From the NCBI GenBank assembly GCA_963697335.1, contig CAVONQ010000002.1:249704-313703 (forward strand): 64,000 bases of DNA. Reading direction: 5' to 3'. The position numbers and the translations under genes are program-made. The notes beneath the pieces were generated by a model. It did not search any database. It saw nothing but the letters and a program-made list of their open reading frames with translations, and was not told the origin of the DNA. This DNA is from an uncultured cyanobacterium (lineage in GTDB: Bacteria > Cyanobacteriota > Cyanobacteriia > PCC-6307 > Cyanobiaceae). This document shows, piece by piece, positions 27,662 through 63,554 of this stretch (position 1 is the first letter of the stretch; each line of letters begins with the position of its first letter).

Positions 27662-29296
27662 TCAGTCCCCCCGGACCAGCCGCTGGCAGGCGGCCTCGCA
27701 GGCCCGCCAGGTGATCGCCATCGCCGTGAGCGTGGGGCTCTGCCAGCCGGCGCCAGGCCAGCAGGCCCCGTCCACCACCAGCACATTGGGAGCCCGCCAG
27801 CACTGGTTGAAGGGATTCACCACGCCCTCTTCCTCCCTGGCGGCCATGCGGGCGCCGCCCAGCTCATGGATGTAGTAGCCGGGCGGGGCAGCACCCTGGC
27901 CCGCGGCATGGCTGCGGAGGATCCAGGGCTCCAGCAGGGGCAGCACGAACAGGTCTTCGAGCGGGCGGATCGTGCCCCCAGCCGCGGCCACCACCGCCGC
28001 CATCCGCCCCTGCATGTGGGCCACCATGGCGGTTTCATTGGGTCCCCAGCCCATGGAGATGTGCGGTGTGGGCAGCCCCCAGGCATCGCTCTGGTCGCTG
28101 TTCAGGGTGACCCGGTTGTCGGCCCGGGGCAGCACCTCGCCATGGCCGATCAGGAAGCCCACGGCCTCGCCGCGGCGGCGCTGCAGCAGGCTGGGCGGAT
28201 CGAAGCGCTGCACCGCCGCCCAGATGCCGTAGCCGCGCTGGAAGCCCTCCTGGCTTGCCCCGTCAAGGTTCACGGTGTTGGGGATGAAGCAGCTGCCGGC
28301 GCCGGAGAGCTCGGCCGGTTCCGCAGGTTGCTCCAGGTCGGGAATCGAGAAGAAGCGGCTGCTGGACACGTGGTCCATCAGATAGTGCCCCAGGCTGCCG
28401 GAGGGATCGATCAACCCGCCGCTCCTGCAGGCCTCGCCGGAGTGCAGCAGGATCCGCAGGGTCTCGATCGTGGAGGCGCACAGCACCAGCAGCGGAGCCT
28501 GCAGCTCCTGCCGTTCGCCGCTGTGGCTGTCGATCACCACCACGCCCCGGGCCCGCCCCTGGCCCGGCTCCATCACCAGATGGCTCACCAGGGCGCCGCT
28601 GCGCACCGCGGTGCGGCCAGTGGCCAGGGCCCGGGCCAGGGTGCTGCCGGGGCTCGACGAGCGGCTCCAGCCCGGGCCGCGGTGCAGGTTGAAGCCCCGC
28701 GAGTGGATCAGGGGCAGGTCCAGGTCGCGGCCGATCGCCTGGCGCAGGTGCTGTTCGCCCGGGGTGAGGGGCAGGGGATCGAGGAACTGGCCATCGGGGA
28801 GCTGGGGCAGGCCGTCGGCCTGGCCGTGCACCCCGAGCAACCGCTCCAGGCGGTCGTAGTAGGGGGCCAGATCCGGCTCGTCGATCGGCCAGCTCGGACC
28901 ACAGCCATCGCGTTCGCCGGCCTTGAATTCGTGGTGGCTCAGCCGCAGGGTGATGCCACCCCAGGTGAGGCTCTTGCCGCCGAGCTGGCGGCCGCGGGTC
29001 CAGAGGAAGGGGCGCTCAGGCGGGGTGGAATAGGGATTGAGCCGCTCGTCGGCGAACAGTTCGGGGTTGTTCTTCCAGTAACCGGGGTGGTGGGCCTGCA
29101 GGCGCTGACGGCCACTGGCGAGATGGGCAACCCGCCTCAGGCTGTTGAGCGGCTCGGCGCCGCGGGCGCGGGCGGCGCCGAGCTCCGCCCCGGCCTCGAG
29201 CACCAGCACCCGCAGGCCAGCCTCCGCCAGCACCATGGCCGCCACCCCACCGGTGGCGCCGGAACCCACCACGATGGCGTCAGGGCGCTCTGTCAT
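27662..29296 (-). CDS. GMC family oxidoreductase
   Basis: VVGSGATGG FAD motif, GGKSLTWG, HELGGARM, SPTLT. Confidence 0.92.
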   Translation of the reverse strand: MTERPDAIVVGSGATGGVAAMVLAEAGLRVLVLEAGAELGAARARGAEPLNSLRRVAHLASGRQRLQAHHPGYWKNNPELFADERLNPYSTPPERPFLWTRGRQLGGKSLTWGGITLRLSHHEFKAGERDGCGPSWPIDEPDLAPYYDRLERLLGVHGQADGLPQLPDGQFLDPLPLTPGEQHLRQAIGRDLDLPLIHSRGFNLHRGPGWSRSSSPGSTLARALATGRTAVRSGALVSHLVMEPGQGRARGVVVIDSHSGERQELQAPLLVLCASTIETLRILLHSGEACRSGGLIDPSGSLGHYLMDHVSSSRFFSIPDLEQPAEPAELSGAGSCFIPNTVNLDGASQEGFQRGYGIWAAVQRFDPPSLLQRRRGEAVGFLIGHGEVLPRADNRVTLNSDQSDAWGLPTPHISMGWGPNETAMVAHMQGRMAAVVAAAGGTIRPLEDLFVLPLLEPWILRSHAAGQGAAPPGYYIHELGGARMAAREEEGVVNPFNQCWRAPNVLVVDGACWPGAGWQSPTLTAMAITWRACEAACQRLVRGD

Positions 29297-29306
29297 CGGC
29301 GCGAGC

Positions 29307-30638
29307 TCAGCTGCCCGAGAGGCTGGCATCCAGCCGGATCAGGCTCTGCAGCAGCACATTCACGCCCTGTTCGCACTGCTCCGGCGTGGTGAACTCCGCG
29401 GCGGAGTGGGACACGCCATCGCGGCTGGGCACGAAGATCATGCCCATGGCGGTGAGCCTGCCCAGCTCCTGGGAGTCGTGGCTGGCGCGGCTGGGCAGGT
29501 GGGTGTGGCTCAGCCCCAGCTGCTGGCAGCTCTCGGTGATCAACTCCTGCACCATCGGATCGGCGGGGCTGGGATCCACCACGAACTGGGGTGTCATCGC
29601 GATGCGGGTGCGGCTGGCCACAGCGATGTTCTCGATCTTCCGCTCCAGGTGGGCGCGCATGTGGTCGATCACGCTGTGGGAGAGGTCGCGCATGTCGAGG
29701 GTGAACTCCACCCGTCCCGGCACGATGTTGGCGGCATTGGGCCATACCTGCAGCTTGCCCACCGTGGCCACCGGATCGCCGGGGAAGTGGAGGGCCATGT
29801 CCTCCACTGCCAGGATGATCTGGGCCGCGGTGGTGAGGGCATCGCGCCGCATGCCCATCGGCGTGGTGCCGGCGTGATTGGCCTGGCCGGTCACGCTGAT
29901 CGTGTAGCGCTGCTGGCCCACAACGCCCTCCACCACGCCGATGTCCTTGCCCACGGCCTCCAGCACGCCCCCCTGCTCCACATGCAGCTCCACGAAGGCG
30001 GCGATCTCCCCGGGCGCCCGGCGGGCGCTGGCGCGGTGCTCCCAGGAGCCGCCGATGCTGGCCAGGCCCTCCTGAATGGGCACCCCCAGGGCCGTGGTGT
30101 AGCTGCTGGGGTCGTCGGAAGCGCGGCCCACCAGGCTCTTGCAGCCCACCATGGTGCTCTCCTCATCGGCGAACACGATCAGCTCGAGCGGGTGCTGCAG
30201 GCGCTGGTTGTGCTCCGAGAGCACCCGCACCACCTCCAGCCCGGCCAGCACGCCCAGGGCGCCGTCGTAGTGGCCCCCCTCCGGCACCGTATCGATGTGG
30301 GAGCCGGTGGCCAGCACGGGGGCTCCCGGCTCGAGGCCCTCGTAGCGGCCGATCATGTTGCCGGCGGCGTCGATGCGCACCGCCATGCCCGCCTGCTCCA
30401 TCCAGCCCTGCACCAGGGCGCGGGCGGCGCGGTCTTCATCGCTGAAGGCCAGCCGCCGCACGGCCCCGGAGGGCACCCGGCCGATGCTGGCCAGGGCTTC
30501 GAGGTTGAGGGCCAGGCGTTCACCGTCGGCCCGCAGCGCCAGCAACGAGCTGACCGCGGCCAGGGAGGCGGTGTCGCTGCCGAGATGGCCGTTGCTGAGG
30601 GGGCCTGGGCCCAGGGGAGCGGCGCTAAGCTGAGTCAT
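29307..30638 (-). CDS. M20 Zn amidohydrolase (N-carbamoyl-L-amino acid/allantoate hydrolase family)
   Basis: GSHIDTV, YDGALG, DEE, ELHVEQG, NHAGTTPM, SHD, GVSH. Confidence 0.9.
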   Translation of the reverse strand: MTQLSAAPLGPGPLSNGHLGSDTASLAAVSSLLALRADGERLALNLEALASIGRVPSGAVRRLAFSDEDRAARALVQGWMEQAGMAVRIDAAGNMIGRYEGLEPGAPVLATGSHIDTVPEGGHYDGALGVLAGLEVVRVLSEHNQRLQHPLELIVFADEESTMVGCKSLVGRASDDPSSYTTALGVPIQEGLASIGGSWEHRASARRAPGEIAAFVELHVEQGGVLEAVGKDIGVVEGVVGQQRYTISVTGQANHAGTTPMGMRRDALTTAAQIILAVEDMALHFPGDPVATVGKLQVWPNAANIVPGRVEFTLDMRDLSHSVIDHMRAHLERKIENIAVASRTRIAMTPQFVVDPSPADPMVQELITESCQQLGLSHTHLPSRASHDSQELGRLTAMGMIFVPSRDGVSHSAAEFTTPEQCEQGVNVLLQSLIRLDASLSGS

Positions 30639-30844
30639 GGAAAGGACCGTATCGGCTGAGGAGAATCGGCTGATCAGGGTGCGGGCGATTCCCCTTGATC
30701 CATCCGGCCGGAGGCGGGTCTGATCAAAGGTGCCCTTAGGCACAAACTCACGGACCAGGATCGTCAATCATCTCCAGAACCTAATTCTCCGCATCACGCG
30801 TGGTGGACCCCATGGGCCCATCACGTCCAACCCACCCACCTGCG

Positions 30845-31591
30845 ATGACCTACTCGATCGTTGCCTGGGACAGCCCCACCGGGATGACCGGTGTGGGCGT
30901 AGCCACCCGCCACCTGGCCGTGGGATCCCTCGTACCCCACGCCAGACCTGGTGTGGGGGCCGTGGCCACCCAGGCCGGCACCAACCCCTATTTCGGTCCG
31001 TGGGGCCTGGATCGGTTGGAGCAGGTTCAGCAGCAGAGCGGCGGGGAGCTGGGGGCTGAGGCGGTGCTGGAGTCGTTGCTGCAGGACGATCCGGGGCGGG
31101 ATGGCCGCCAGGTGCACCTGGTGGACAGCCAGGGCCGCACCGCCGCCTGGACAGGCCCCGACTGCGCCGGCCTCGCGGCCCATCGCTGCTATCCCGGCTT
31201 TTCGGTCGCGGGCAATTACCTCGCCTCCGAGCTGGTGCTGCTGGCCATGGCCGAGGCCTACATGGCCGCCGAGCGCCATGGTCTGGCCCTGGAGGAACGC
31301 CTGATGGCGGCTCTGGAGGCGGCTGAAGCCCACGGCGGCGACTATCGAGGCCGTCAGTCGGCCGCCCTGCTGGTGATGCACCAGGAGAGCTATCCCCACA
31401 TCGACTTCCGGGTGGACCATCACCCTGAGCCGCTGGTGGCGCTGCGCGAGATCCTGGCCGAAACCAGCCAGCCCTACTACACCGGTTTCCGCGCCACCCT
31501 GCCCACCACCCTCGGGGTGGCCCAGACCGCAGAGCTTCCAGCGGCAGGGGTGGAGTCGCCTCAGCCGCCCGACATGCCGATCAGCGCGTAG
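30845..31591 (+). CDS. DUF1028 (Ntn-hydrolase fold) protein
   Basis: MTYSIVAWD, GVGAVATQ, GGDYRGRQSAA, RVDHH. Confidence 0.88.
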   Translation: MTYSIVAWDSPTGMTGVGVATRHLAVGSLVPHARPGVGAVATQAGTNPYFGPWGLDRLEQVQQQSGGELGAEAVLESLLQDDPGRDGRQVHLVDSQGRTAAWTGPDCAGLAAHRCYPGFSVAGNYLASELVLLAMAEAYMAAERHGLALEERLMAALEAAEAHGGDYRGRQSAALLVMHQESYPHIDFRVDHHPEPLVALREILAETSQPYYTGFRATLPTTLGVAQTAELPAAGVESPQPPDMPISA

Positions 31592-33627
31592 GCCGGCTCT
31601 GCCTGATCGGCAGCCCCGGGCCTCCAGCCCAGCCGGTCGGCCAGTTCCCTGGCCTGGGCGGGCACATCGGCGGCCACGAACAGCTCGTGCATGATCTGCA
31701 CGCCGATCAGGTGATTGATCACGGCGTCGAGCTGCACCCGCGTTGCCGGGCTGGTGGCGGGATCGTCGTGGCGGGCGAACAGCGCCGCCACCCCCGCCCG
31801 ATCCAGCAGCCCGGCCCGCTCGATGGCCTCGGCGCTGAGGTGGCGGTCGGCCAGCACCTGCATGGCGGCGCGCTTCTCGGGGTCGGCGTGGGCCGGTGGG
31901 GCCATGAAGGCAAACTTCTCGCGGCGGTAGAGCTGCTCGGGCAGCAGGCCGCGCATGGCCTCGCGCAGCACGTATTTCTCCGTTTTGCCCTTGATGCGCA
32001 GCTCCGGCGGCACCTGCACGGCAACGGCGGCCAGATGGTGGTCGAGGAAGGCGGGGCGCGCCTCCATGGCGTGGGCCATGTCCACCCGGTCGCCGCCCCA
32101 GGTGAGGATCTGGCCCTCCAGCATCGTTTTGATCCACACATACTGGGCCCTGTCGAGGGCATGGCGGCCCTCGAGTTGGGAGGGATCGAGGCTGGCGGCG
32201 ATGGCGGCGCCGGGCTCATAGCCGGCGCAGGCCTGGCGGTGCAGCGGAGCCAGCAGGGCCGGCACCAGGGGAGCGCAGGCCAGCCAGGGCTGGAGGCAGC
32301 TGGGCGTGAAGCCCACCACGGCCTCCAGGGCCGGATCGTGCACCTGCTCCTCGGCCAGCATCGCCCCCTGCACCAGCTGGTTGGCCTCCTGCAGCAGCTG
32401 CTCCCACTCCTGGCGATCGGCCTCCGGCAGGTCCTGCAGCCCGTGCAGGAACATGTCGCGACGGAAGGCGGGATACCCCCCGAACAGCTCATCGGAGCCC
32501 TCGCCGGTCATCACCACCTTGTAGTGGGAGCGGTTGACCTCGCGGCTCATCAGGAATTTGGCCACCGCCAGGGTGTTGTAGATCGTGCGCTCGGTGTGCC
32601 AGATCGTGGCCTCCAGGTGGCCGTAGAGCTCATGGCCGGAGAGCCGCATCACCAGTTGGTCGGCGCCGGTGGCCTCGGCCATCGAGGTGGCGATCGGGGT
32701 TTCGTCGTAGCGGCTGTCGTCGAAGCCGATCGTGAACGCCTTCACCGGGTTCTGGCTCACCGCGGCGGCCAGGCCCAGGATCGAGCAGGAGTCGATGCCG
32801 CCGGAGAGGTAACAGCCCACGGGCACATCGGCCACCATGCGCACTTCCACGGCTTCCAGCAGGGCCTGGCGCACGGCGGCGATGTGGTCGGCCTCCGTGC
32901 GGTCGGGATCGCGCTCGCCGCTGCGGGGGAAGTCCACGTCCCAGTAGGGCTGGTCGTCGATGCTGAAGCGCCCGTCGTGGCGGCGCACGGTGAGCACGTG
33001 GCCGGGTTTGAGCTGGTGCACCCCCTCAAAGGCCGTGGTGCCCGGCACCATGGTCTGCATCAGCTGGTGGAACAGGCCTTCGGAGCTGAAGCGCCGTTGC
33101 ACGCCGGGGTGGGCGAACAGCACCTTGAGCTCGGAGCCGAACACCAGGCCCTCCTCGGTGAGGGTCCAGTACTGGGGCTTGACGCCGAAGCGGTCGCGCA
33201 CCAGGTAGAGGCTGTCGAGGCGGCTGTCGAACAGGGCGAAGGCGAACTCCCCGCGCAGCAGCGGCAAGCTGGCTTCCAGGCCCCGCTGCTGGTAGAGCCG
33301 CAGCAGGATCTCGGAATCGCTCTTGCTGCTGAAGTGATGGCCCTGGGCCGTGAGCGAGGCGCGGATCGCCTGGAAGTCGTAGAACTCACCGTTGTGGGCC
33401 ATCAACAGCTGGCCGTCCTCAGACACAAACGGCTGGCGGCCGCGGTTGGCATCGAGGTCGATGATCGAGAGGCGGGCATGGCAGAAGCCCACGCCCTGAT
33501 CCGGCAGGCCCCTCACGCCGAAGCCATCGGGGCCCCGGTGAACCTGGATCGCCGCCATGTTGACGAGCACCTGCTCGTCGATCGGCTGCTGGGGCTGGAG
33601 CTGAAATACTCCCCCGATGCCACACAT
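31561..33627 (-). CDS. asnB: Asparagine synthase-like glutamine amidotransferase
   Basis: N-terminal MCGI, HRGPD, LSGGIDS, TGEGSDELFGGY. Confidence 0.9.
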   Translation of the reverse strand: MCGIGGVFQLQPQQPIDEQVLVNMAAIQVHRGPDGFGVRGLPDQGVGFCHARLSIIDLDANRGRQPFVSEDGQLLMAHNGEFYDFQAIRASLTAQGHHFSSKSDSEILLRLYQQRGLEASLPLLRGEFAFALFDSRLDSLYLVRDRFGVKPQYWTLTEEGLVFGSELKVLFAHPGVQRRFSSEGLFHQLMQTMVPGTTAFEGVHQLKPGHVLTVRRHDGRFSIDDQPYWDVDFPRSGERDPDRTEADHIAAVRQALLEAVEVRMVADVPVGCYLSGGIDSCSILGLAAAVSQNPVKAFTIGFDDSRYDETPIATSMAEATGADQLVMRLSGHELYGHLEATIWHTERTIYNTLAVAKFLMSREVNRSHYKVVMTGEGSDELFGGYPAFRRDMFLHGLQDLPEADRQEWEQLLQEANQLVQGAMLAEEQVHDPALEAVVGFTPSCLQPWLACAPLVPALLAPLHRQACAGYEPGAAIAASLDPSQLEGRHALDRAQYVWIKTMLEGQILTWGGDRVDMAHAMEARPAFLDHHLAAVAVQVPPELRIKGKTEKYVLREAMRGLLPEQLYRREKFAFMAPPAHADPEKRAAMQVLADRHLSAEAIERAGLLDRAGVAALFARHDDPATSPATRVQLDAVINHLIGVQIMHELFVAADVPAQARELADRLGWRPGAADQAEPAYALIGMSGG

Positions 33628-33673
33628 AGATCGTCTCCTGGATGAAAGCTTGTACGGCTGAACGTGGCGGACT

Positions 33674-34759
33674 TCAGATGATGTCCATCACCTGGTCTGT
33701 GCGCTCCACCATGCAGGTGAGCAGGGCCATGCGGATGAACACGGCGCCGCGGGCCTGGGAGAAGTACCAGTTGTGGGGGCTGCCATCGAGGCAGGTGCCC
33801 AGCTCGGCCCCGCGGGCCAGGGGGTGGAGGATGATCGCTTCAGGCCGGTAGGGCAGATCGGCGGTGAGGTGGAAGCTGCGGCCATGCACCTCGTAGTTGT
33901 CCCCCACCCAGGCGATCGCGTTGATGTAGATCACATCGAGATCGGGCACGGCGGCGCTGAGGTCATCGCTGGTGAGCACCTTGATGCCGGCCTGCTCCAG
34001 CTCCTCCCGCTGGCCTGGATCAAAGTAGCTCTCGGCTTCCCCAGGGTCGATGCCAGGCTCGTGGAACAGCACCAGTTCATCGATCATCTGCGGGAATTTG
34101 GTGAGGATGCGCAGCAGGGAACGCACCGTGCGCATGCGCTTCGGGATGCCCACGATGCCGATGCGGATGCGTTGATCGGTGGGCACATCCTGCTCCACCA
34201 GCTGGGGCCGCCACTTGAAGATGGTGTAGAGGTCGGCCATGGCCTGGGTGGGATGTTCATCGATGCCATTGCCGGCATTGATGATCGGAATCCGCAGAGA
34301 TTCCGTCATCTCGTAGATGGCCTGGGCATTGGTATCCCGCAACACCACGCAGTCGCCGTAGTTGTTGAACATCTCGGCCACATCCCGGAGCGTTTCCCCC
34401 TTGGCGATACCAGTGGTGCTGCGATCCGTGATCGTGATCGTGTCGCCGCCGAGCCGGTGCCAGGCGCTGTCGAAGGAGAGTCGGGTGCGGGTGCTGGGCT
34501 CGTAGAAGGCGTTGATCAGGATCTTGCGCTGCAGCGGGCTGTTGAAGCGGATGTAGCGCTGGGGATTGCTCTCGAACTTCGCCGCCAGCCGAAACACCTG
34601 CAGCAGGGAAGTGGCGCTGTATTGCAGCGTGGAGATCACATGCTGATTCATCAGATCACTCAGGGCCCCGCCGTGCTCGCGGATCTGCTCGAGCAGGGCC
34701 TGTGGGTGAGCGTTCCCATAGACATCAGGGCCGAGCCGATTGAAGTGGGGAGAGTGCAT
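33674..34759 (-). CDS. Aspartate carbamoyltransferase-like carbamoyltransferase (non-canonical)
   Basis: FYEPSTRTRLSF, KGET, NAG..EHPTQ, RTVRSL, HPLAR; lacks RxQxER. Confidence 0.85.
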   Translation of the reverse strand: MHSPHFNRLGPDVYGNAHPQALLEQIREHGGALSDLMNQHVISTLQYSATSLLQVFRLAAKFESNPQRYIRFNSPLQRKILINAFYEPSTRTRLSFDSAWHRLGGDTITITDRSTTGIAKGETLRDVAEMFNNYGDCVVLRDTNAQAIYEMTESLRIPIINAGNGIDEHPTQAMADLYTIFKWRPQLVEQDVPTDQRIRIGIVGIPKRMRTVRSLLRILTKFPQMIDELVLFHEPGIDPGEAESYFDPGQREELEQAGIKVLTSDDLSAAVPDLDVIYINAIAWVGDNYEVHGRSFHLTADLPYRPEAIILHPLARGAELGTCLDGSPHNWYFSQARGAVFIRMALLTCMVERTDQVMDII

Positions 34760-34885
34760 CGTCAAAGGTGATCCCGGGGGCTGGGGATGTTGTGGTCGAA
34801 CGGGGTGGAAGGCTCCATCTTCCGCCTCAACCGGGTTGTTGTCTGGAATCTCTTGTGTTTTCTGCAACATCGGAACCGCAAAAAA

Positions 34886-34899
34886 GTAGCGGTATTGAC
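34886..34899. promoter_or_regulatory. Possible NtcA site upstream of the carbamoyltransferase gene
   Basis: GTA-N8-GAC (one mismatch to GTA-N8-TAC) with an A-rich flank; no clear -10 at the usual spacing. Confidence 0.3.
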
Positions 34900-34925
34900 C
34901 GTTTTGTGATCAGTCGGCCCTGGCG

Positions 34926-35117
34926 CTACCAGACCCGGCCGTTGCGCCACTCCACGAACCAGATGCCCAGGATCACCAACACGGCCAGCACGAGGCCGGC
35001 GATGCTGCCGTACACCACCAGGCCGAACCACCAGCCGGAGATCAGCCAGGAGCCGGCGGGGGCGCTGGTGCTCAGCAGCAGGGAAGGGAACAGGGCCATG
35101 GCTTGGGGGATGGGCAC
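34926..35117 (-). CDS. Small membrane protein downstream of the SSS transporter
   Basis: Hydrophobic segment ending IWFVEWRNGRVW; 3 bp after the SSS stop. Confidence 0.6.
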   Translation of the reverse strand: MPIPQAMALFPSLLLSTSAPAGSWLISGWWFGLVVYGSIAGLVLAVLVILGIWFVEWRNGRVW

Positions 35118-35120
35118 GAC

Positions 35121-36554
35121 TCAGGGGCTCTCGGGATCGCCGGCCAGCTGGCGCCAGTCGTACTGCTCGGGCCAGTAGTGGCTGCCCAGGCCCATCACCA
35201 GGGCCGAGACGGCGGCGGAGACCAGGGCGGCGCAGTAGGGGGCGATCAGCCCGTAGGCCAGCAGGCCGCTGACCGAGCCCAGCAGCATGGCGGCGGTGGC
35301 CGCCTGGCGGTTGGCCTGGCGCCAGTAGAGCCCCATGGCAATCGGCCAGATCGTGGAGGCCACCAGGGCGCCGGTGAACAACAGCAGCTGGTACATCGAC
35401 GTCACGTATTGCCAGGAGAGCAGCATGGTCAGCAGGCCCAGGGCCACCACCACCCGGCGGGCGGCCTGGCGGATCTGCTGGTCGGTGGAGTCGGGGCGTA
35501 ACCAGTGGGCGATCACGTCCTCGGCGATCAGATCGGCCGTGGCGGCGAGCAGGGAGTCGAGGGTGGAGGTGAGCGAGGCGAAGATGATCACGAACACCAC
35601 CGCGGCGCCGCTGCTGCCCAGCAGCTGGGCGGTGACGATGGGGAACACCATGTTCACCTGGGGAATCTCGAGGTTCTGGGCCAGGGCCATCAGGGCGATG
35701 GCGCCCGTCACGATCGGCACGGTGACCCAGGCCAGGCCGCCGAGCACGAAGGAGCGGAACACCACCGAGGGGCGGCTGGCGAACACCCGCGACCACCAGA
35801 TGTTGTTGTGGAACACCTCGCCCATGCTGAACAGCCCGGTGTTCCAGGCGAAGAGCAGACCTGCCGGCAGCAGCAGATTCAGTCGCTCGGGATGCTCGCT
35901 GGCCAGGGCCGTGTACACCTGATCGGTGCCGAAGCGGCTGAAGCCGAGCACGGCCACCAGCACCAGCAACGCCATGATCAGCAGCGACTGGATGAAGTCG
36001 GTGCCCACCACCGCTCGCATGCCGCCGAACAGGGTGTAGGTGGTGGACACGCCGATCACACACACCATGCCAAGGCGGTAGTCGAAGCCCGAGAGCGACT
36101 GCAGCAGCAGGCCGGCCCCCATGCCCTGGGTGATCAGAAAGCCCAGGGTGTAGGCCATGGTGATCAGCAGGAACAGGGCCCAGCAGAGCCGCCCGTAGCG
36201 CAGCCGCACGAAGTCGCCGCTGGTGCGGGCCCGGGGCATCAGCCGCTTGATCCGCACCGCCAGGGGAGCGAACAGGAACAGCCCCAGGCCGGCGAGGGCG
36301 TAGCCGAACATGCCCCAGAGGCCGAGGGTGTAACCCACCTCCGGCGCCGCCAGGGTGGTGTTGCCGGTGACCCAGCTGGCCATCAGGGTGGCCGTGCTCA
36401 GGGCCAGGCCGATGTTGCGGCCGGCGAGCAGGTAGTCGTCGGCGTCGCCGCTGCCGCGCCGGCCCCACCAGATGCCCAGGGCGATCCAGAGCACGGAGAA
36501 GCCCACCAGGAGCAGCCAGGCGGCGCCCGGCGCCAGCATCGCGTCAGTCGTCAT
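35121..36554 (-). CDS. Sodium:solute symporter (DUR3-like)
   Basis: YLLAGR, ASWVT, YTLFGGMRAVVGTDFIQ, STLDSLL; many TM helices. Confidence 0.9.
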   Translation of the reverse strand: MTTDAMLAPGAAWLLLVGFSVLWIALGIWWGRRGSGDADDYLLAGRNIGLALSTATLMASWVTGNTTLAAPEVGYTLGLWGMFGYALAGLGLFLFAPLAVRIKRLMPRARTSGDFVRLRYGRLCWALFLLITMAYTLGFLITQGMGAGLLLQSLSGFDYRLGMVCVIGVSTTYTLFGGMRAVVGTDFIQSLLIMALLVLVAVLGFSRFGTDQVYTALASEHPERLNLLLPAGLLFAWNTGLFSMGEVFHNNIWWSRVFASRPSVVFRSFVLGGLAWVTVPIVTGAIALMALAQNLEIPQVNMVFPIVTAQLLGSSGAAVVFVIIFASLTSTLDSLLAATADLIAEDVIAHWLRPDSTDQQIRQAARRVVVALGLLTMLLSWQYVTSMYQLLLFTGALVASTIWPIAMGLYWRQANRQAATAAMLLGSVSGLLAYGLIAPYCAALVSAAVSALVMGLGSHYWPEQYDWRQLAGDPESP

Positions 36555-36566
36555 CGGGGCAGGGCA

Positions 36567-36695
36567 TCAACCGGGGTCATCGAAGGGATCGCGCTGGTGC
36601 CAGCGCCGGTGGCCGCGCAGCACCATCACCACGGTGGTCAGGGTCACCAGGCCGCCGAGCACGAAGATCAGCAGGGCCCGTTGCAGCTCGGTCAT
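36567..36695 (-). CDS. Small single-TM protein upstream of the SSS transporter (42 aa)
   Basis: MTELQRALLIFVLGGLVTLTTVVMVLRGH; GGAGG upstream. Confidence 0.55.
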   Translation of the reverse strand: MTELQRALLIFVLGGLVTLTTVVMVLRGHRRWHQRDPFDDPG

Positions 36696-36729: not shown

Positions 36730-36752
36730 AAAAAAGCCCCGGAAACCGGGGC
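36730..36752 (-). terminator. Terminator downstream of tRNA-fMet
   Basis: GCCCCGG-TTT-CCGGGGC-T6. Confidence 0.85.
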
Positions 36753-36771
36753 CTGTTGAAGAGCAAACAAG

Positions 36772-36848
<77 letters not shown>

Positions 36849-36894: not shown

Positions 36895-37866
36895 TCAGTC
36901 GAAGCGCAGCTCGCCGCGCACGTCCAGCTTCAGGTGCGGTGCCGGCTCCAGGAACGAGCGGCGCAGCTCCTCGAGGGTCATCGGCGTCAGCCAGTCGAGC
37001 TGCTCCAGCAGGTGCAGGGCCACGGCGTGCTTGGCCCGCCCGGCGCCGTCCTCCACCTTGATCGCCACCCCCAGCCCCTCGCCCACCCGGCTGAGGCACT
37101 GAATCCCCTCGGCACCTCCCTTGCTGAGCACCTGGCCATGGCCCAGGCGCATCAGCTCGGTGTCGAAGCGGCCCTCGCCGGCCACCAGCTCCGGATGGCT
37201 GAGCATCGCCCGGCTGAGCCGCTCCAGGTCGGGTTGGGCGCCAGCTCCGAGGTGGGCGTAGAGCAGGGCCATCTGGGCCAGCTGCAGCTGCAGGGTGGGT
37301 GCGCCGCAGTCGTCGCGGGCCGTGACCAGTTCAGCGGCGGGCAGGCCGAGCAGTTCGGCCACCCGCTTGAGCACCTCCTGCTGCAGGGGATGCTCCGGCT
37401 GCAGGTAGCTCTCCAGGGCCCAGCCCATGCGCCGGCAGGTGGCCAGGAAGGCGGCGTGCTTGCCGGAGCAGTTGTGCTCCAGGGGGCTGCTGCCGTGCTC
37501 GGGCACGGGGCTCTGCAGCTGCTCGGCCTCCACCTCGGCGCCCCACAGCAGCCGGAAGGCCTCGCGGGCATGGCCGGAGGTGCCGGCATGGGAGGCGCAG
37601 GCAATGGCCAGGCCCCGGTCGCCGCAGTTGATCTGGTCGGCGGTGCCGCTGGCCACGAACACGGAGGCCTGAAAGGGCTTGAGGGCCGAGCGCACGAAGC
37701 TCAGCTGCTGGGGATCGCCGGCCCGCATCAGCACGCGGCCGCGGCCATCGCACACCACCGCATGCACCCGATGGCGGGATTCGGTGATGCCGTTGCGCAG
37801 CAGTCGCACCTCCAGGGGAGGAATGGAGGTGCGGGCCGATCCGCCGAAGCTGGGGGGCAGGGACAT
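36895..37866 (-). CDS. ansA: L-asparaginase II family
   Basis: RSALKPFQ, CASH, HNCSGKH, KGGAEG. Confidence 0.88.
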   Translation of the reverse strand: MSLPPSFGGSARTSIPPLEVRLLRNGITESRHRVHAVVCDGRGRVLMRAGDPQQLSFVRSALKPFQASVFVASGTADQINCGDRGLAIACASHAGTSGHAREAFRLLWGAEVEAEQLQSPVPEHGSSPLEHNCSGKHAAFLATCRRMGWALESYLQPEHPLQQEVLKRVAELLGLPAAELVTARDDCGAPTLQLQLAQMALLYAHLGAGAQPDLERLSRAMLSHPELVAGEGRFDTELMRLGHGQVLSKGGAEGIQCLSRVGEGLGVAIKVEDGAGRAKHAVALHLLEQLDWLTPMTLEELRRSFLEPAPHLKLDVRGELRFD

Positions 37867-59719: not shown

Positions 59720-60076
59720 ATGGGAAATCCGATCAGCCGGGAATTATTTCTGGAACGGGCCCGTTCGCGCTTTGGCGATCGCTATGACTACGGCGAAATA
59801 ATCTACAAAAGCTATAAATCACCCATCAAGATTCGCTGCAAGATGCATCCGGTGAAGCAGATCTGCATCACCCCTGAAAAGCATCTGCAAACCACCGGCG
59901 GCTGCAAGTACTGCCTGCGGGAGATGCGCATTCAGATGCTGGAGCGGGAGCTCAACCGCCAGAGCGCCCAGCATCCCCCCGTCCAGGCGGGCGAGGCCGC
60001 TCGGCTGGAGCCCCAGACCGCTGCTGGCCTGGGCCCCCAGACGCCGCCGCCGCCGGCCTCACCACCCGCCCCCTGA
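59720..60076 (+). CDS. Stand-alone DUF723/CapR-like zinc-binding domain protein
   Basis: FLERAR..FGDRYDY...Y...SPIKIRCKMH......TPEKHL...GGCKYC. Confidence 0.65.
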   Translation: MGNPISRELFLERARSRFGDRYDYGEIIYKSYKSPIKIRCKMHPVKQICITPEKHLQTTGGCKYCLREMRIQMLERELNRQSAQHPPVQAGEAARLEPQTAAGLGPQTPPPPASPPAP

Positions 60077-60209
60077 GCCCTGGCCTGTCGCCCGTAGCCC
60101 GGCAGCTCAAGACCCAGGCCCTGGAGGTGTTCCGCGACCCCGCCGCAGCGCTGAGGCCACCCCTTTCGATCTTCAAGACCGCACCCGCAGGCTCGGTCAG
60201 GGGGCGCCG

Positions 60210-60500
60210 CGGGAGCACAACGTGGCCCTCGATGCGCCGGCTTGGATGGCACCTTGATGAAGGAAGCGCCGCTGCTGGCGGTGACCCTGGTGGACAACCA
60301 GGATTTGGTTGAAGCCGCTGGCCTACGCCTTCATCCTGCTGCGGGATGAGGGCTATCCCTGCAGCTTCCGTGCCGATTACTGCGGGGCCTCCCACCCCGC
60401 CGCGTTCATCACCAACGCCGAAGGCTGGGCCGAGTGGCACTGCCAGGGAGGCTCGGTGACGGGGTGGGTGGAGGAGAGCTGGTGGGAGGAGCCGTCTTAG
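60210..60500 (+). pseudogene. Deleted remnant of a cytoplasmic alpha-amylase (GH13, AmyA-like) C-terminus
   Basis: DGTLMKEAPLLAVTLVDNQD / WLKPLAYAFILLRDEGYPC..ADY.GA / TNAEGWAEWHCQGGSVTGWV in broken frames. Confidence 0.7.
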
Positions 60501-60549
60501 CCGTAGGGATCCTCACGGGATCTGGAGTGTGCTAAGGGTATAGAGACCT

Positions 60550-60598
60550 GTGCTCAAAGGGCCTGCTGAGGGCCTGCAGTCCGGCTGACATTTTGTAG
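60550..60598 (+). pseudogene. intI: 3'-terminal stub of an integron integrase
   Basis: GTGCTCAA-AGGGCCTGCTGAGGGCCTGCAGTCCGGCTGACATTTTGTAG reads, with a frameshift, VL(N)..GLLRACSPADIL*, like the IntI tail VLNRGxxGVxSPxD; upstream of the cassettes. Confidence 0.5.
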
Positions 60599-60853
60599 CC
60601 AATTGAACAGGTGGTTTGCGGACCCATGAACCACACTGAAGAAGACAGGAGCGGTGCTGAGATCCTAAGGTGGGCAAGGGATTTCCAGAATCGGGTGAGG
60701 ATTTCTAATTGTGGTTATCAGAAAGGTGAGGACCGGCTGCTGTGGTTCATGGAACCATCCAATGACTAGTTGGCAGGGCATCTAAGAGTCTCGTCAGACT
60801 TGACATACTTGCGGCACTGCTCTAAATTTTCAATTCCTATAGACCTTGGGCTA

Positions 60854-61273
60854 GTGGCAAGCTGGTTGACCGAGTTTCAGGAGTGGTACGCCGAGCAGCA
60901 CCCCATTGTTAAAGGCGCAGTTGTACTAGGCGGTGGCGCCGTTGCCTGCGCTGGTGGTGTTGTTGCTGCCCCCGTTGTCGGTGCGATGGCATCTGCAGCA
61001 GGTCTAGGGGTAGCAGGAGGATCCCTAGCGGGCGCTGCCGCGTCTTCGGCAGGTCTTGCTGCTTTGGGTGGAGGCTCCTTGGCTGCAGGTGGTCTGGGGA
61101 TGGCTGGAGGAACAGCTGTAGTAGCTGCAGCAGCAGGTGCGGCAGGTGCAGGTGCCACATCAATCCTAAGCAAGAAAGTTGATTCCGAAGGTGAACGCAC
61201 GAAGGAAGACTTCAAGAGGGCTTCAAGCGAAAGGGTTCAAAAAGGTGACATTCGTTTTGAGGATGAGGTTTGA
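60854..61273 (+). CDS. Glycine-zipper membrane protein A (cassette 1)
   Basis: Long Gly/Ala hydrophobic tract GAAASSAGLAALGGGSLAAGGLGMAGG. Confidence 0.7.
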   Translation: MASWLTEFQEWYAEQHPIVKGAVVLGGGAVACAGGVVAAPVVGAMASAAGLGVAGGSLAGAAASSAGLAALGGGSLAAGGLGMAGGTAVVAAAAGAAGAGATSILSKKVDSEGERTKEDFKRASSERVQKGDIRFEDEV

Positions 61274-61275
61274 CG

Positions 61276-61647
61276 ATGGCTTCTGTCGCTGACTTTGCAA
61301 CTGAATTTGCCAAGAGAGCTGCAAATGGCAAAAATCCTTCTGTTTATGTGTCTAAGTTGCATGTAGAGAGCTTCCTTCTGGTCTTGGCGCGAGAGGGGTT
61401 CTCGTTCGCTAAGGAGGCACTTGAGCAAATCACCGATCCAGATCTCAGAAGAATCATTGAGACGATCTTCTTCTCAACCGTGATTGGAGCGGGCGCGGGT
61501 GCTGTTATCGGGGGAGTAGTTGCTGGCCCCCCGGGAGCTCAAGTGGGAGCTGCTGTTGGTGCAGGCCTAGGTTTCGCAGCCGGCTGTATCGCCATAACAA
61601 TTACTGCTAAGCAAAAGGGGGATGGCCTTCAGATCTCTATGGCCTAA
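61276..61647 (+). CDS. Glycine-zipper membrane protein B (cassette 1)
   Basis: GAGAGAVIGGVVAGPPGAQVGAAVGAGLG hairpin; abuts gene A. Confidence 0.75.
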   Translation: MASVADFATEFAKRAANGKNPSVYVSKLHVESFLLVLAREGFSFAKEALEQITDPDLRRIIETIFFSTVIGAGAGAVIGGVVAGPPGAQVGAAVGAGLGFAAGCIAITITAKQKGDGLQISMA

Positions 61648-61725
61648 TACACTTTAGCACTTCCCTCTGGAGTTCAATAGGGATTATCATAGTTTGCGAA
61701 AGTGCATCAGGCTGCAACAGTTGCC

Positions 61726-61810
61726 TGCCAACATCAAGATACAGAAGACGGGAGCGATACGTAATGGCTGGTCTTGGGGTTGTTGCCCGCTTCTGATCTT
61801 GGCGTTATGC
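61726..61810 (+). repeat. attC site 1
   Basis: TGCCAAC-ATCAAGAT-A-CAGAAG-A-CGGG...CCCG-CTTCTG-ATCTTGG-C-GTTATGC imperfect inverted repeat with bulged bases. Confidence 0.85.
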
Positions 61811-61976
61811 GGCCTACCTGAAGCTAGCCATTCGAAAGCTTCCTACATCTGAGCTTTGCGCCTGCCTCGGGCTGCAATCCATGAACACTCAGCTTGGTGA
61901 GCCTATAATTTTGAAATCTGCCTTGGGGCGCACGTCATAGTGTCGGTTCAGTAAGCCTTCCGCGCAGGAGCCCTAA

Positions 61977-62702: not shown

Positions 62703-62703
62703 T

Positions 62704-62737
62704 CTCTAATATGAGCATCCAGAGAGTCCACTTAGGC
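62704..62737 (+). repeat. Degenerate, internally deleted attC site
   Basis: CTCTAAT-ATGAGCATCCAG right after the stop codon; ends CTTAGGC, complementary to the next R'' GCCTAAC. Confidence 0.45.
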
Positions 62738-63536: not shown

Positions 63537-63554
63537 GGAAACACAGCTTGAGCC

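What the first reader, a model, noticed from the sequence alone, without database searches (positions are those of the whole stretch)
29307..36695. Carbamoyltransferase + AsnB amidotransferase + carbamoylase + Ntn hydrolase + SSS transporter: candidate synthesis/recycling pathway for an N-carbamoyl amino-acid amide
Seen: SSS, an ATCase-like gene and asnB are co-oriented, next to a divergent pair DUF1028 / M20 N-carbamoyl hydrolase. Known: AsnB-family enzymes amidate carboxyl groups (AsnO in NAGGN osmolyte synthesis), M20 enzymes remove N-carbamoyl groups, and N-alpha-carbamoyl-L-glutamine-1-amide is a described bacterial osmolyte. Inference: the two synthetic enzymes add a carbamoyl and an amide group, the two hydrolases remove them, and the symporter takes the product up. 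This would be an N-rich compatible solute or N-storage cycle, not pyrimidine or asparagine synthesis. As I recall, similar clusters occur in marine Synechococcus with no assigned function.
Basis: partly seen in the sequence, partly recalled or inferred. Interest (0 to 1): 0.8.

Follow-up and report, generated by a model that had tools for sequence, protein, structure and literature searches.

The report
Carbamoyl-amide solute gene cassette
A seven-gene cassette in a salt-tolerant picocyanobacterium probably makes, re-imports and breaks down a small carbamoylated, amidated amino acid; the cluster is already listed in the literature, but nobody has tested what it does.

Summary
Window 29307-36695 holds seven intact genes:
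- two single-pass membrane micro-proteins flanking a sodium:solute symporter
- a third ATCase paralogue that keeps the carbamoyl-phosphate motifs but has Ala-Ile-Ala where PyrB has Arg-x-Gln
- a 688-aa AsnB-type amidotransferase
- a divergent DUF1028 Ntn hydrolase and an M20 carbamoylase

Canonical pyrB and argF lie elsewhere in the genome.

Five congeners without the ATCase-like gene show an empty site. The cassette sits between tRNA-Met and a GMC oxidoreductase, so asparaginase II and the GMC gene belong to the backbone.

The ATCase-like/AsnB pair is the invariant core (73 of 74 loci). Low-GC, Prochlorococcus-like genomes carry the four enzymes without the symporter. Idiomarina-group genomes carry symporter plus pair with no hydrolase within 10 kb. 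This points to synthesis of an endogenous product.

In 401 family genomes, 64 of 71 carriers also have glucosylglycerol-phosphate synthase. No NtcA box or carbamate kinase was found.

The cluster is in print as the marine "pseudo-ATCase" block (Barba 2013) and the asnB-pyrB2-pydC eCAG (Doré 2023), untested. This scan found it before on other DNA. The product, possibly N-carbamoyl-glutamine amide, remains unproven.

The parts
36567..36695 (-). TM1: 42-aa single-pass membrane micro-protein directly upstream of the symporter (stop 12 nt before the SSS ATG)
   Evidence: Sequence read. Similar micro-ORFs ('ALLIFxxGxxVTLATVVMI..GH..W..RDP') lie upstream of the SSS in most of the cyanobacterial loci scanned. 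In gammaproteobacteria the matching TM helix is the C-terminal anchor of a 144-178-aa exported protein.
35121..36554 (-). Sodium:solute symporter family transporter, 477 aa
   Evidence: PF00474 5e-27. NCBIfam gives only the generic sss superfamily, below cut-off (148 against 184), with PanF and PutP as weak best specifics. Adjacent to the ATCase-like gene in 72 of 72 loci with enough upstream flank.
34926..35099 (-). TM2: 57-aa single-pass membrane micro-protein between symporter and ATCase-like gene, ending ...VEWRNGRVW; predicted small subunit of the symporter
   Evidence: A TM micro-ORF at this position was found in 69 of 76 loci; all 21 aligned copies end in Trp. Complex prediction with the SSS: score 0.85, best of 3 controls 0.00. 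That mark was reached by 116 of 157 solved complexes and 2 of 215 mismatched pairs. Runs agree in >=91% of contacts and partner pLDDT is >=73. My own alignments were used, so the counts hold only roughly.
33674..34759 (-). ATCase-like carbamoyltransferase ('pseudo-ATCase', pyrB2), 361 aa from M38 (longest ORF reaches 34870)
   Evidence: PF02729 2.1e-40, PF00185 1.7e-10. TIGR00670 184.4 bits, below the 236.95 cut-off. STRTR, KGE, HPTQ and the MRTVRS Arg are kept; TR(I/L)QKER is replaced by NAIAWV and HPLP by HPLA. There is a conserved ~35-aa N-terminal extension, PDVYGxAHPxALL. Orthologues in gammaproteobacteria are 59-65% identical.
31561..33627 (-). AsnB-type glutamine-dependent amidotransferase, 688 aa, N-terminal Cys2 kept
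   Evidence: PF00733 2.5e-91, GATase_6/7. TIGR01536 421.7 bits; NAGGN amidotransferase TIGR03104 311.9 bits, below the 570 cut-off. Only 32% identical to a paralogue on contig 14. Best solved relative is 7YLZ 'hydroxyamidotransferase'. Next to the ATCase-like gene in 73 of 74 loci with enough flank.
30845..31591 (+). DUF1028 Ntn-type hydrolase, 248 aa from M16 (ORF from GTG 30800); converges on and overlaps the AsnB 3' end by 31 nt
   Evidence: PF06267 3.6e-66. Solved relative 2IMH, function unknown. 24 of 24 orthologues begin (M/V)-T-(F/Y)-S-I, i.e. Thr directly after the start residue. Within 10 kb in 15 of 15 full-flank cyanobacterial loci and 0 of 42 other loci. Absent from 5 of 5 gammaproteobacterial genomes.
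29307..30638 (-). M20 hydantoinase/carbamoylase-family amidase (pydC/amaB), 443 aa from M44 (ORF from TTG 30767); divergent from DUF1028
   Evidence: PF01546, PF07687. NF006771 424.5 bits (cut-off 399), TIGR01879 410 bits, ErtE N-carbamyl-L-glutamate amidohydrolase 415 bits (below cut-off 520). The same NF006771 subfamily lies next to the cluster in Kangiella, Pseudoalteromonas and Aliikangiella (500-516 bits). It lies elsewhere in the genome in the 4 Idiomarina-group genomes tested and beside the cluster in Kangiella, 5 of 5 genomes in all.
36734..36848 (-). Boundary, not part of the cassette: tRNA-Met (36772-36848) and a strong terminator-like hairpin (36754-36734)
   Evidence: In 5 congeners without the cassette the same tRNA-Met is followed, after 0.13-0.2 kb or 2.2-3.8 kb of other genes, by the GMC gene.
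27662..29329 (-). Boundary, not part of the cassette: GMC-family FAD oxidoreductase whose start overlaps the M20 stop by 23 nt
   Evidence: Pfam. Present at the same place in 5 of 5 congeners that lack the cassette. Terminator-like site at 27516-27489.

Best explanation
The cassette is one functional unit for a small N-carbamoyl (ureido) amino-acid amide that the cell makes itself.

**Inferred steps**
- The ATCase-like enzyme transfers the carbamoyl group of carbamoyl phosphate to the alpha-amino group of a neutral amino acid.
- The AsnB-like enzyme uses ATP and glutamine to turn the free carboxylate into an amide. The order of these two steps is unknown.
- The product, uncharged and nitrogen-rich, would serve as a compatible solute. 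[quoted passage not shown]
- The symporter with its two small membrane partners would recapture leaked product.
- The DUF1028 Ntn hydrolase (amide) and the M20 carbamoylase (ureido group) would take the product apart when it is no longer needed.

**Shown here**
- Gene content and intact frames.
- Loss of the aspartate side-chain ligands, with the carbamoyl-phosphate motifs kept.
- Canonical pyrB and argF elsewhere in the genome.
- Invariance of the ATCase-like/AsnB pair, with variable accessory parts.
- The boundaries of the insertion.
- Co-distribution with a salt-tolerance gene.

**Inferred**
Every chemical step, the product, and the physiological role.
For: 1. **Not PyrB.** The score is below the equivalog cut-off. 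R-x-Q is replaced by A-I-A and HPLP by HPLA, while STRTR, KGE, HPTQ and the Arg of the MRTVRS stretch are kept. This matches the published pseudo-ATCase motifs. The genome has separate pyrB and argF.
2. **The synthetic pair is the invariant core.** AsnB follows the ATCase-like gene in 26 of 27 cyanobacterial loci and 47 of 47 other loci with enough flank.
3. **Accessory parts vary.**
 - Three low-GC (33.6-33.9%), 1.6-1.7-Mb genomes of genus g19 carry ATCase-like, AsnB, M20 and DUF1028 with no symporter nearby or anywhere in the genome. This agrees with zero symporter entries in the Prochlorococcus columns of Doré's Dataset 6.
 - Idiomarina-group genomes carry symporter plus pair with no hydrolase within 10 kb.
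 - So the enzymes can act without import, on an internal substrate.
4. **A carbamoylase of one NCBIfam subfamily (NF006771) recurs** on either strand, on either side of the cluster, or elsewhere in the genome. That ties the pathway to a ureido compound.
5. **Empty-site comparison.** Exactly these seven ORFs are present or absent as a block between tRNA-Met and the GMC gene.
6. **Salt link.**
 - In 401 genomes of the family, 64 of 71 carriers also have glucosylglycerol-phosphate synthase, against 65 of 330 non-carriers.
 - In the window's own genus the split is 13 with both, 1 with the cassette only (an 86%-complete genome), 1 with GgpS only and 15 with neither.
 - The window's genome has GgpS at 722.6 bits.
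 - In 2 marine Synechococcus loci (L016, L035) the cassette lies directly beside two methyltransferases and an OpuAC-type ABC transporter.
 - Doré 2023 reports the Prochlorococcus copies 'notably in the Red Sea'.
7. **No sign of the catabolic route.**
 - No carbamate kinase above cut-off in the own genome or in 5 gammaproteobacterial genomes.
 - No GTAN8TAC NtcA box in the 400 nt upstream of the symporter in the window and 25 cyanobacterial loci.
8. **TM2 is predicted to bind the symporter** (score 0.85, best control 0.00).
9. **Precedent (NCBIfam naming; operon details recalled).** The NAGGN osmolyte system also pairs an N-capping enzyme with an AsnB-type amidotransferase and a peptidase.
Against: - No metabolite, enzyme assay, mutant or expression datum exists for any member. 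No RNA holder was listed for this stretch.
- In marine Synechococcus the synthetic and hydrolytic genes are co-oriented and closely spaced. Without further control that would be a futile cycle.
- Eight marine Synechococcus loci place the cassette between molybdenum-cofactor/nitrate-region genes and urease, and Doré 2023 finds it in N- and P-depleted waters. Both fit a nitrogen-related role and make a four-nitrogen solute look costly.
- The GgpS co-distribution is confounded by marine habitat and by shared ancestry. Kin are not independent, so I draw no probability from it.
- The absence of an NtcA box rests on the strict consensus only.
- The ectoine-synthase search in the gammaproteobacteria had no positive control.
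- Nothing in the sequence singles out glutamine over asparagine, alanine, glycine or another neutral substrate.
Confidence: 0.5

Rival explanations
1. Uptake and breakdown of an external ureido or amide nitrogen compound. The symporter imports it, DUF1028 and M20 release ammonia, and the ATCase-like enzyme runs in reverse to harvest carbamoyl phosphate. [quoted passage not shown]
For: - The cassette lies beside urease and the nitrate/molybdenum-cofactor genes in 8 marine Synechococcus loci.
- It is enriched in N- and P-depleted waters.
- The only assayed pseudo-ATCase, Rubrobacter Rxyl_2847, works phosphorolytically on allantoate.
- The M20 falls in a subfamily named allantoate amidohydrolase.
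Against: - The ATP- and glutamine-consuming AsnB-like enzyme is the most constant partner (73 of 74 loci) and has no place in a catabolic route.
- Three Prochlorococcus-like genomes keep the enzymes without the symporter.
- Idiomarina-group genomes keep symporter plus synthetic pair with no hydrolase nearby.
- No carbamate kinase was found.
- No strict NtcA box was found.
Confidence: 0.15
2. A biosynthetic route in which the carbamoyl group is a transient protecting group, as acetyl is in arginine synthesis. The steps would be carbamoylate, amidate, then remove the carbamoyl with M20, giving a free amino-acid amide or a further product.
For: - In marine Synechococcus and the Prochlorococcus-like genomes the order is ATCase-like, AsnB, M20, DUF1028 on one strand.
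- M20 enzymes of the ArgE/DapE type play this role elsewhere (established knowledge).
- It avoids the futile-cycle problem.
Against: - Idiomarina-group cassettes have no M20 within 10 kb (27 of 42 full-flank non-cyanobacterial loci lack one).
- In this window, M20 and DUF1028 are on separate, divergent transcription units.
- No known metabolite fits the scheme.
Confidence: 0.12
3. Guanidino-group synthesis. The ATCase-like enzyme makes a ureido compound. The AsnB-like enzyme then adenylates the ureido oxygen, as its relative argininosuccinate synthetase does, and adds ammonia to give a guanidine.
For: Only chemical plausibility from the shared PP-loop fold (established knowledge) and the constant pairing of the two enzymes.
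Against: - No precedent in the AsnB family that I know of.
- The recurrent carbamoylase points to a ureido end product or intermediate that is hydrolysed as such.
- No arginase- or amidinohydrolase-type gene is in the cassette.
Confidence: 0.06
4. Alternative pyrimidine biosynthesis (Doré 2023), or plain asparagine synthesis next to a second PyrB.
For: Database names (pyrB2, asnB, pydC) and the suggestion in Doré 2023.
Against: - The aspartate side-chain ligands are lost and the score is below the PyrB cut-off.
- A canonical pyrB is present.
- No dihydroorotase-like gene is in the cassette.
Confidence: 0.03

Closest known systems
Marine 'pseudo-ATCase' subgroup and its synteny block (Barba, Dutoit, Legrain & Labedan 2013, BMC Syst Biol 7:99, PMC4016543; passages read)
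   Same: - Same motif set: STRT, HPTQ, HPLA, and AIA in place of RxQ.
[quoted passage not shown]
- An authentic pyrB elsewhere in the genome.
- The paper's examples include Synechococcus WH 8102 and Kangiella koreensis.
   Different: - The paper calls the third neighbour a 'putative asparaginase'; here and in 73 of 74 loci it is an AsnB-type synthetase.
- The paper proposes no function for this subgroup.
- Its table lists the HPLA/AIA motifs under 'pseudo-ATCase 1' while its text calls the marine set 'Subgroup 3'. I could not resolve this because figures are not held.
Syn-eCAG_003 / Pro-eCAG_007 'asnB, pyrB2, pydC' of marine picocyanobacteria (Doré et al. 2023, ISME J, PMC10119275; passages and Dataset 6 rows read)
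   Same: Same six gene families, listed as Cyanorak clusters:
- CK_00001890, symporter ('ureP/DUR3')
- CK_00055201, membrane protein
- CK_00001891, pyrB2
- CK_00001822, asnB
- CK_00001892, pydC/amaB
- CK_00001893, Ntn aminohydrolase

The table's Cyanobium columns also show carriers.
   Different: - Here DUF1028 is inverted, so the hydrolases form a divergent pair, and the cassette sits next to tRNA-Met rather than next to urease.
- The paper suggests 'alternative pyrimidine biosynthesis', which the active-site changes do not support.
- The 'urea-proton symporter' name is not backed by my family scan.
NAGGN (N-acetylglutaminylglutamine amide) osmolyte system, asnO-ngg with a peptidase (NCBIfam TIGR03104 'trio' name seen; operon details recalled and as worded in earlier scan notes)
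   Same: Same logic: cap the alpha-amino group, amidate the alpha-carboxylate with an AsnB-type enzyme, and encode a hydrolase alongside. The product is an uncharged, glutamine-derived solute.
   Different: The cap would be carbamoyl from carbamoyl phosphate, not acetyl. There is no GNAT/ATP-grasp Ngg gene. The AsnB-like protein scores 311.9 bits against a cut-off of 570 for TIGR03104, so it is not AsnO.
Ureidoglycine carbamoyltransferase Rxyl_2847 of Rubrobacter xylanophilus (Barba 2013)
   Same: An ATCase paralogue without the RxQ motif that acts on a ureido compound. It is the only pseudo-ATCase with an assay.
   Different: It belongs to a different subgroup. It sits with carbamate kinase, allantoinase and uricase in a purine-breakdown cluster and works phosphorolytically. 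Here there is no carbamate kinase and the partner is a synthetase.
Aspartate carbamoyltransferase PyrB (EC 2.1.3.2)
   Same: Same fold and the same carbamoyl-phosphate site. The best solved relatives are ATCases (E 2e-40).
   Different: About 30% identity to the genome's own PyrB. Arg and Gln of RxQ are replaced by Ala, Pro of HPLP by Ala. It has an extra conserved N-terminal extension and scores below the equivalog cut-off.

Membership tests
Marine pseudo-ATCase subgroup (Barba 2013) | Carbamoyltransferase signature motifs S-T-R-T and H-P-T-Q kept | tested here: met
   FYEPSTRTRLSF and EHPTQAMADL in P0001; motif table.
Marine pseudo-ATCase subgroup (Barba 2013) | HPLA in place of HP[LG]P, and AIA/AIS/SIA in place of RxQ | tested here: met
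   ILHPLARG and YINAIAWVG, aligned to HPLPR and TRIQKER of M. jannaschii ATCase and to RLQKER of the genome's own PyrB.
Marine pseudo-ATCase subgroup (Barba 2013) | Authentic ATCase encoded elsewhere in the same genome | tested here: met
   Three OTCace_N genes in the genome. The one on contig 18 has FFEPSTRTR, HPSQ, RLQKER and HPGP. The one on contig 11 is OTCase-like.
Marine pseudo-ATCase subgroup (Barba 2013) | Synteny with a Na+ symporter and an N-carbamoyl-amino-acid amidohydrolase | tested here: met
Aspartate carbamoyltransferase PyrB | Score above the curated equivalog cut-off | tested here: not met
   TIGR00670 184.4 against 236.95; NF002032 182.7 against 263.
Aspartate carbamoyltransferase PyrB | Arg and Gln of the RxQ motif that hold the aspartate beta-carboxylate (role from established ATCase structural work, recalled; motif) | tested here: not met
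   Both are Ala, invariant or nearly so across 12 orthologues.
Syn-eCAG_003 / Pro-eCAG_007 (Doré 2023) | Adjacent asnB, pyrB2, pydC, with symporter, membrane protein and Ntn hydrolase | tested here: met
   Gene map; Dataset 6 rows 54-59. Formal assignment to the Cyanorak clusters is not testable here.
NAGGN osmolyte system | AsnO-type amidotransferase above the TIGR03104 cut-off | tested here: not met
   311.9 bits against 570.1.
NAGGN osmolyte system | Ngg (GNAT plus ATP-grasp) gene in the cluster (feature recalled) | tested here: not met
   No such domain among the ORFs of 27-38 kb.
Catabolic carbamoyltransferase module (UGTCase, catabolic OTCase and PTCase types) | Carbamate kinase to turn carbamoyl phosphate into ATP | tested here: not met
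   TIGR00746: best 24 bits against a cut-off of 358 in the own genome, and none above cut-off in 5 gammaproteobacterial genomes.
N-carbamoyl-L-glutamine 1-amide pathway (no genes in print that I could find) | Cassette-dependent production of the compound | not testable with these tools
   The compound and its only named producer come from Roberts 2005 and Imhoff 2020. Full-text searches for the compound's names found 4 papers; the passages I read in two of them name no genes, and the other two I saw only as listings.
N-carbamoyl-L-glutamine 1-amide pathway | Cassette present in the genome of Ectothiorhodospira marismortui | not tested
   - Claimed by earlier scan notes e1-3607570 and e1-1235665.
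- I could not check it: only the best 80 of 542 loci were returned.

The most novel reading that the evidence does not exclude
[quoted passage not shown] That nitrogen-rich ureido-amide would then be an unrecognised compatible solute of warm, salty-water Synechococcus, some Prochlorococcus, salt-tolerant Cyanobium-like cyanobacteria and hundreds of marine and soda-lake bacteria, with its own three-part symporter and a dedicated two-step breakdown.
Probability: 0.3. Interest if true: 0.8.

Novelty: new member of a known kind. Interest (0 to 1): 0.6.

Why it matters
Relatives of the ATCase-like enzyme are encoded in 542 of the stretches matched in 185,579 species genomes. They occur in 71 of 401 genomes sampled from the picocyanobacterial family, which includes lineages that dominate warm oligotrophic oceans. 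Databases still call the genes pyrB and asnB.

If the pair makes a ureido-amide solute, three things follow:
- An orphan osmolyte known since 1991 would be assigned to genes.
- A nitrogen-costly solute would be added to the budgets of marine picocyanobacteria.
- A widespread mis-annotation would be corrected.

If instead the cassette is a nitrogen-scavenging route, it would name a new dissolved organic nitrogen source. Either outcome can be tested with two cloned genes.

Tried and rejected
- **Rfam scan of 27-40 kb.** Only tRNA-Met was found; no riboswitch.
- **Promoter scan.** No sigma-70-like site; only terminator-like sites.
- **NtcA box GTAN8TAC.** None in 26 upstream regions.
- **Attachment-site repeats.** No shared word of 10 nt or more between the tRNA side and the M20/GMC junction. 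Cassette GC (0.679) and GC3 are close to the flanks, so there is no sign of a recent transfer.
- **Asparaginase II and GMC oxidoreductase as pathway members.** Rejected, because both stay in place in 5 of 5 congeners that lack the cassette.
- **Context of the unlinked M20 in three Idiomarina-group genomes.** AhpC/AhpD-like, FixG-like, APH and DsbA genes; uninformative.
- **Ectoine synthase in 5 gammaproteobacterial genomes.** No match, but the control genomes did not ring either, so this shows nothing. No Glyco_transf_20 match was above cut-off in those genomes.
- **AsnB paralogues.** All three in the genome pass the generic TIGR01536 cut-off, so family scores cannot say which, if any, makes asparagine.
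- **Names for the more distant relatives** found in the 50%-identity library.
- **Full-text searches.**
 - 'DUF1028': 1 unrelated paper.
 - 'pyrB2': 9 papers; by title and abstract only Doré 2023 concerns cyanobacteria.
 - The four-term Synechococcus query: 0 papers.

Full report
**What is in the window.**

The window comes from a 2.58-Mb, 69% GC picocyanobacterial genome. Its neighbours include CGLD27, DUF3318, DUF2811 and CbiX genes. Pfam and NCBIfam scans of the long ORFs give this map:

| Gene | Coordinates | Strand |
|---|---|---|
| GMC oxidoreductase | 27662-29329 | - |
| M20 hydantoinase/carbamoylase-type amidase | 29307-30767 | - |
| DUF1028 | 30800-31591 | + |
| AsnB-type amidotransferase | 31561-33627 | - |
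| ATCase-like carbamoyltransferase | 33674-34870 | - |
| Sodium:solute symporter | 35121-36554 | - |
| Asparaginase II (PF06089) | 36895-37866 | - |

The backbone continues with CGLD27, RsfS, DUF3318 and carB.

Reading the intergenic DNA added two features.
- There is a 42-aa single-TM ORF at 36567-36695, 12 nt before the symporter.
- There is a 57-aa single-TM ORF at 34926-35099, between the symporter and the ATCase-like gene.
- A tRNA-Met (36772-36848) and a strong terminator-like hairpin (36754-36734) separate asparagin­ase II from the cluster.

Its coordinates run exactly from the M20 stop codon to the start codon of the first micro-ORF.

**The ATCase-like enzyme is a third paralogue that cannot bind aspartate in the usual way.**

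The genome has three OTCace_N genes.
- The one on contig 18 has the PyrB motifs FFEPSTRTR, HPSQ, RLQKER and HPGP.
- The one on contig 11 is OTCase-like.
- The cluster's protein scores 184.4 bits on TIGR00670 against a cut-off of 236.95.

Aligned to solved ATCases and to the genome's own PyrB, the protein shows these features:
- It keeps STRTR, KGE, HPTQ and the Arg of MRTVRS.
- It has NAIAWV where ATCases have TR(I/L)QKER, and HPLA where they have HPLP.
- These changes, and a ~35-residue N-terminal extension (PDVYGxAHPxALL), are invariant or nearly so in 12 orthologues.

From established ATCase structural work (recalled), the lost Arg and Gln hold the beta-carboxylate of aspartate, while the retained residues hold carbamoyl phosphate and the alpha-carboxylate. 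The likely acceptor is therefore an alpha-amino acid with an uncharged side chain. That last step is inference.

**The cluster is widely conserved, and its parts are not equally constant.**

Orthologues 59-65% identical occur in these genera:
- Idiomarina, Pseudidiomarina and Aliidiomarina
- Kangiella and Aliikangiella
- Pseudoalteromonas, Pleionea and Thiothrix

In all, 542 stretches in the species-genome collection encode a relative, and the best 80 were returned. I searched those 80 loci by tblastn with the window's proteins.

| Feature | Cyanobacterial loci | Other loci |
|---|---|---|
| AsnB-like gene directly after the ATCase-like gene (loci with enough flank) | 26 of 27 (exception L042) | 47 of 47 |
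| Symporter directly before it | 27 of 27 | 45 of 45 |
| M20 relative within 10 kb (full-flank loci) | 15 of 15 | 15 of 42 |
| DUF1028 within 10 kb (full-flank loci) | 15 of 15 | 0 of 42 |

The M20 genes beside the cluster in Kangiella, Pseudoalteromonas and Aliikangiella belong to the same NCBIfam subfamily, NF006771, at 500-516 bits. Five of five gammaproteobacterial genomes tested hold such a gene: unlinked in the four of the Idiomarina group and beside the cluster in Kangiella. None of the five has DUF1028.

A TM micro-ORF between symporter and ATCase-like gene was found in 69 of 76 loci; all 21 aligned copies end in Trp. A complex prediction supports, but does not show, that it binds the symporter:
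- The score was 0.85 and the best of 3 controls was 0.00.
- That mark was reached by 116 of 157 solved complexes and 2 of 215 mismatched pairs.
- The runs agree in at least 91% of contacts, and the partner's pLDDT is at least 73.
- My own alignments were used, so the counts hold only roughly.

In the window's genus, 13 of 29 other genomes carry the ATCase-like gene. I looked at five congeners that lack it. The backbone is unchanged: CGLD27, asparaginase II, tRNA-Met, then the GMC oxidoreductase, CbiX, the ParB-like gene and the Na+/H+ exchanger. Between tRNA-Met and the GMC gene lies one of two things:
- 0.13-0.2 kb of DNA, in two genomes.
- 2.2-3.8 kb of other DNA, in three genomes. In the two annotated it encodes a response regulator and a histidine kinase, with a binding-protein-like domain in one.

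Asparaginase II and the GMC gene are therefore backbone, although the GMC start overlaps the M20 stop by 23 nt. The unit gained or lost is exactly the seven ORFs of 29307-36695. No attachment-like repeat was found, and base composition is close to the flanks. This looks like an old, well-adapted cassette at a variable tRNA-adjacent site.

**Tests that separate a synthetic from a scavenging role.**

1. Three genomes of genus g19 carry ATCase-like, AsnB, M20 and DUF1028 on one strand with no symporter.
 - They are 1.6-1.7 Mb, 33.6-33.9% GC and 99-100% complete, i.e. Prochlorococcus-like.
 - No symporter lies within 9 kb, and there is no match to a symporter profile anywhere in these genomes.
 - Doré's Dataset 6 likewise shows zeros for the symporter in all Prochlorococcus columns.
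 - The enzymes therefore work without this importer.
2. The Idiomarina group keeps symporter plus the two synthetic enzymes with no hydrolase nearby. The only invariant element is the pair that would build something.
3. No carbamate kinase above cut-off occurs in the window's genome or in five gammaproteobacterial genomes. It is the usual partner of catabolic carbamoyltransferases.
4. No strict NtcA box lies upstream of the symporter in 26 cyanobacterial regions.
5. Carriers are mostly genomes that also have glucosylglycerol-phosphate synthase (TIGR02398).

| Sample | Both | Cassette only | GgpS only | Neither |
|---|---|---|---|---|
| Family, 401 genomes | 64 | 7 | 65 | 265 |
| Own genus, 30 genomes including the window's | 13 | 1 (86% complete) | 1 | 15 |

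Three of the seven 'cassette only' genomes in the family sample are the Prochlorococcus-like ones. Related genomes are not independent and all carriers are marine or saline. This shows restriction to salt-adapted lineages, not a salt function.

**Evidence that cuts the other way.**

- Eight marine Synechococcus loci place the cassette between molybdenum-cofactor/nitrate-region genes and urease. Two (L016, L035) place it directly beside two methyltransferases and an OpuAC-type ABC transporter, which are probably glycine-betaine genes. One (L029) places it beside a fused hydantoinase/oxoprolinase.
- Doré 2023 finds the cluster in warm, iron-replete, N- and P-depleted waters. That fits a nitrogen role as well as it fits the saltier subtropical seas.
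- In marine Synechococcus the synthetic and hydrolytic genes are co-oriented, which would need post-transcriptional control to avoid a futile cycle.
- There is no expression, enzyme or metabolite evidence for any member.

**Comparison with what is known.**

- The enzyme and its neighbours match the marine 'pseudo-ATCase' subgroup of Barba et al. 2013 (passages read). That paper gives the HPLA and AIA motifs and the symporter/amidohydrolase synteny, but no function.
- The same paper shows that a Rubrobacter pseudo-ATCase from another subgroup cleaves allantoate phosphorolytically.
- Doré et al. 2023 (passages and Dataset 6 rows read) list all six gene families as an ecologically coherent cluster and suggest alternative pyrimidine synthesis. 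The active-site changes and the canonical pyrB argue against that.
- The nearest working analogy is the NAGGN osmolyte system. Membership fails: the AsnB-like protein is below the AsnO cut-off and there is no Ngg gene.
- The best solved relative of the AsnB-like protein is 7YLZ, a 'hydroxyamidotransferase'. This shows that the family amidates carboxylates other than aspartate.
- My full-text searches for the compound's names returned 4 papers. The passages I read in two of them name no genes; the other two I saw only as listings.

**Relation to earlier notes of this scan.**

The scan has met this module before on other DNA. Eight notes share sequence words with the ATCase-like protein, and two more turned up by word search. 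All reach the carbamoyl-amide solute reading. I treat that as a lead, not as support.
- The notes led me to Barba 2013, which I then read.
- I re-observed the 'osmolyte supercluster' context in L016 and L035, and the micro-proteins.
- The claim that the E. marismortui genome holds the pair (e1-3607570, e1-1235665) I could not test.

**Verdict.**

This is a real, intact, conserved cassette and a new member of a kind already listed in print but never tested. The most likely function (about 0.5) is synthesis, recapture and turnover of an N-carbamoyl amino-acid amide solute. The specific product N-carbamoyl-glutamine amide stands at about 0.3. The main rival is a nitrogen-scavenging role (about 0.15).

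Noticed in passing
L102:2236-6082, L100:15225-17412 (congeners without the cassette): The same tRNA-Met/GMC site holds a response regulator and a histidine kinase instead of the cassette (plus a periplasmic-binding-protein-like domain in L102). L103 has a similar gap that I did not annotate. The site is a variable spot in this genus.
   Followed up: partly
Proteins P0133, P0135, P0137, P0138, P0142-P0147, P0152-P0155: A more distant clade of 355-374-aa ATCase-like proteins, 31-41% identical. They share part of the N-terminal extension ('LPGP...EH.VA.P') but have degraded STRTR, lost KGE and changed HPLxR. They may be inactive or differently acting relatives. Their organisms could not be looked up.
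   Followed up: no
L029:15742-19413 (-) (Synechococcus sp. MIT S1220): A 1223-aa fused hydantoinase/oxoprolinase A+B gene lies directly beyond DUF1028, which hints at a link to hydantoin or 5-oxoproline-type ring chemistry in that strain.
   Followed up: no
L042:11009-13284 (Aphanocapsa feldmannii 277cV, sponge symbiont MAG): The only locus where no AsnB-like gene follows the ATCase-like gene. A 2.3-kb gap lies before M20, and 786 nt with no micro-ORF lie before the ATCase-like gene. The cassette may be decaying.
   Followed up: no
L036 (record titled Gammaproteobacteria bacterium CPC316): It carries a cyanobacterial-type cassette (71% identity, with M20 and DUF1028 co-oriented). This is probably a mis-binned Synechococcus contig.
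   Followed up: no
L043:7889-8425, L052:8000-8449, L073:8005-8439, L071:7927-8415: Gammaproteobacteria have a 144-178-aa exported protein with no Pfam family before the symporter. Its C-terminal TM anchor resembles the 42-aa cyanobacterial TM1, as if the cyanobacterial gene kept only the anchor.
   Followed up: partly
window 60001-64000: GC falls from about 0.70 to 0.58 and then 0.51 at the end of the window, suggesting foreign or atypical DNA.
   Followed up: no
L017, L020, L021, L023, L024, L027, L030, L032, L038, L039: about 5.4-7.9 kb (3.1-5.6 kb in L027): In 10 marine Synechococcus loci a circularly permuted ATP-grasp (PF14403) plus Alpha-E (PF04168) pair lies directly upstream of the symporter on the opposite strand. 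Its function is unknown.
   Followed up: no
window 29307-29329: The GMC oxidoreductase start overlaps the M20 stop by 23 nt, although the GMC gene is backbone and M20 is cassette. The insertion may have put the GMC gene under the cassette's transcription.
   Followed up: no
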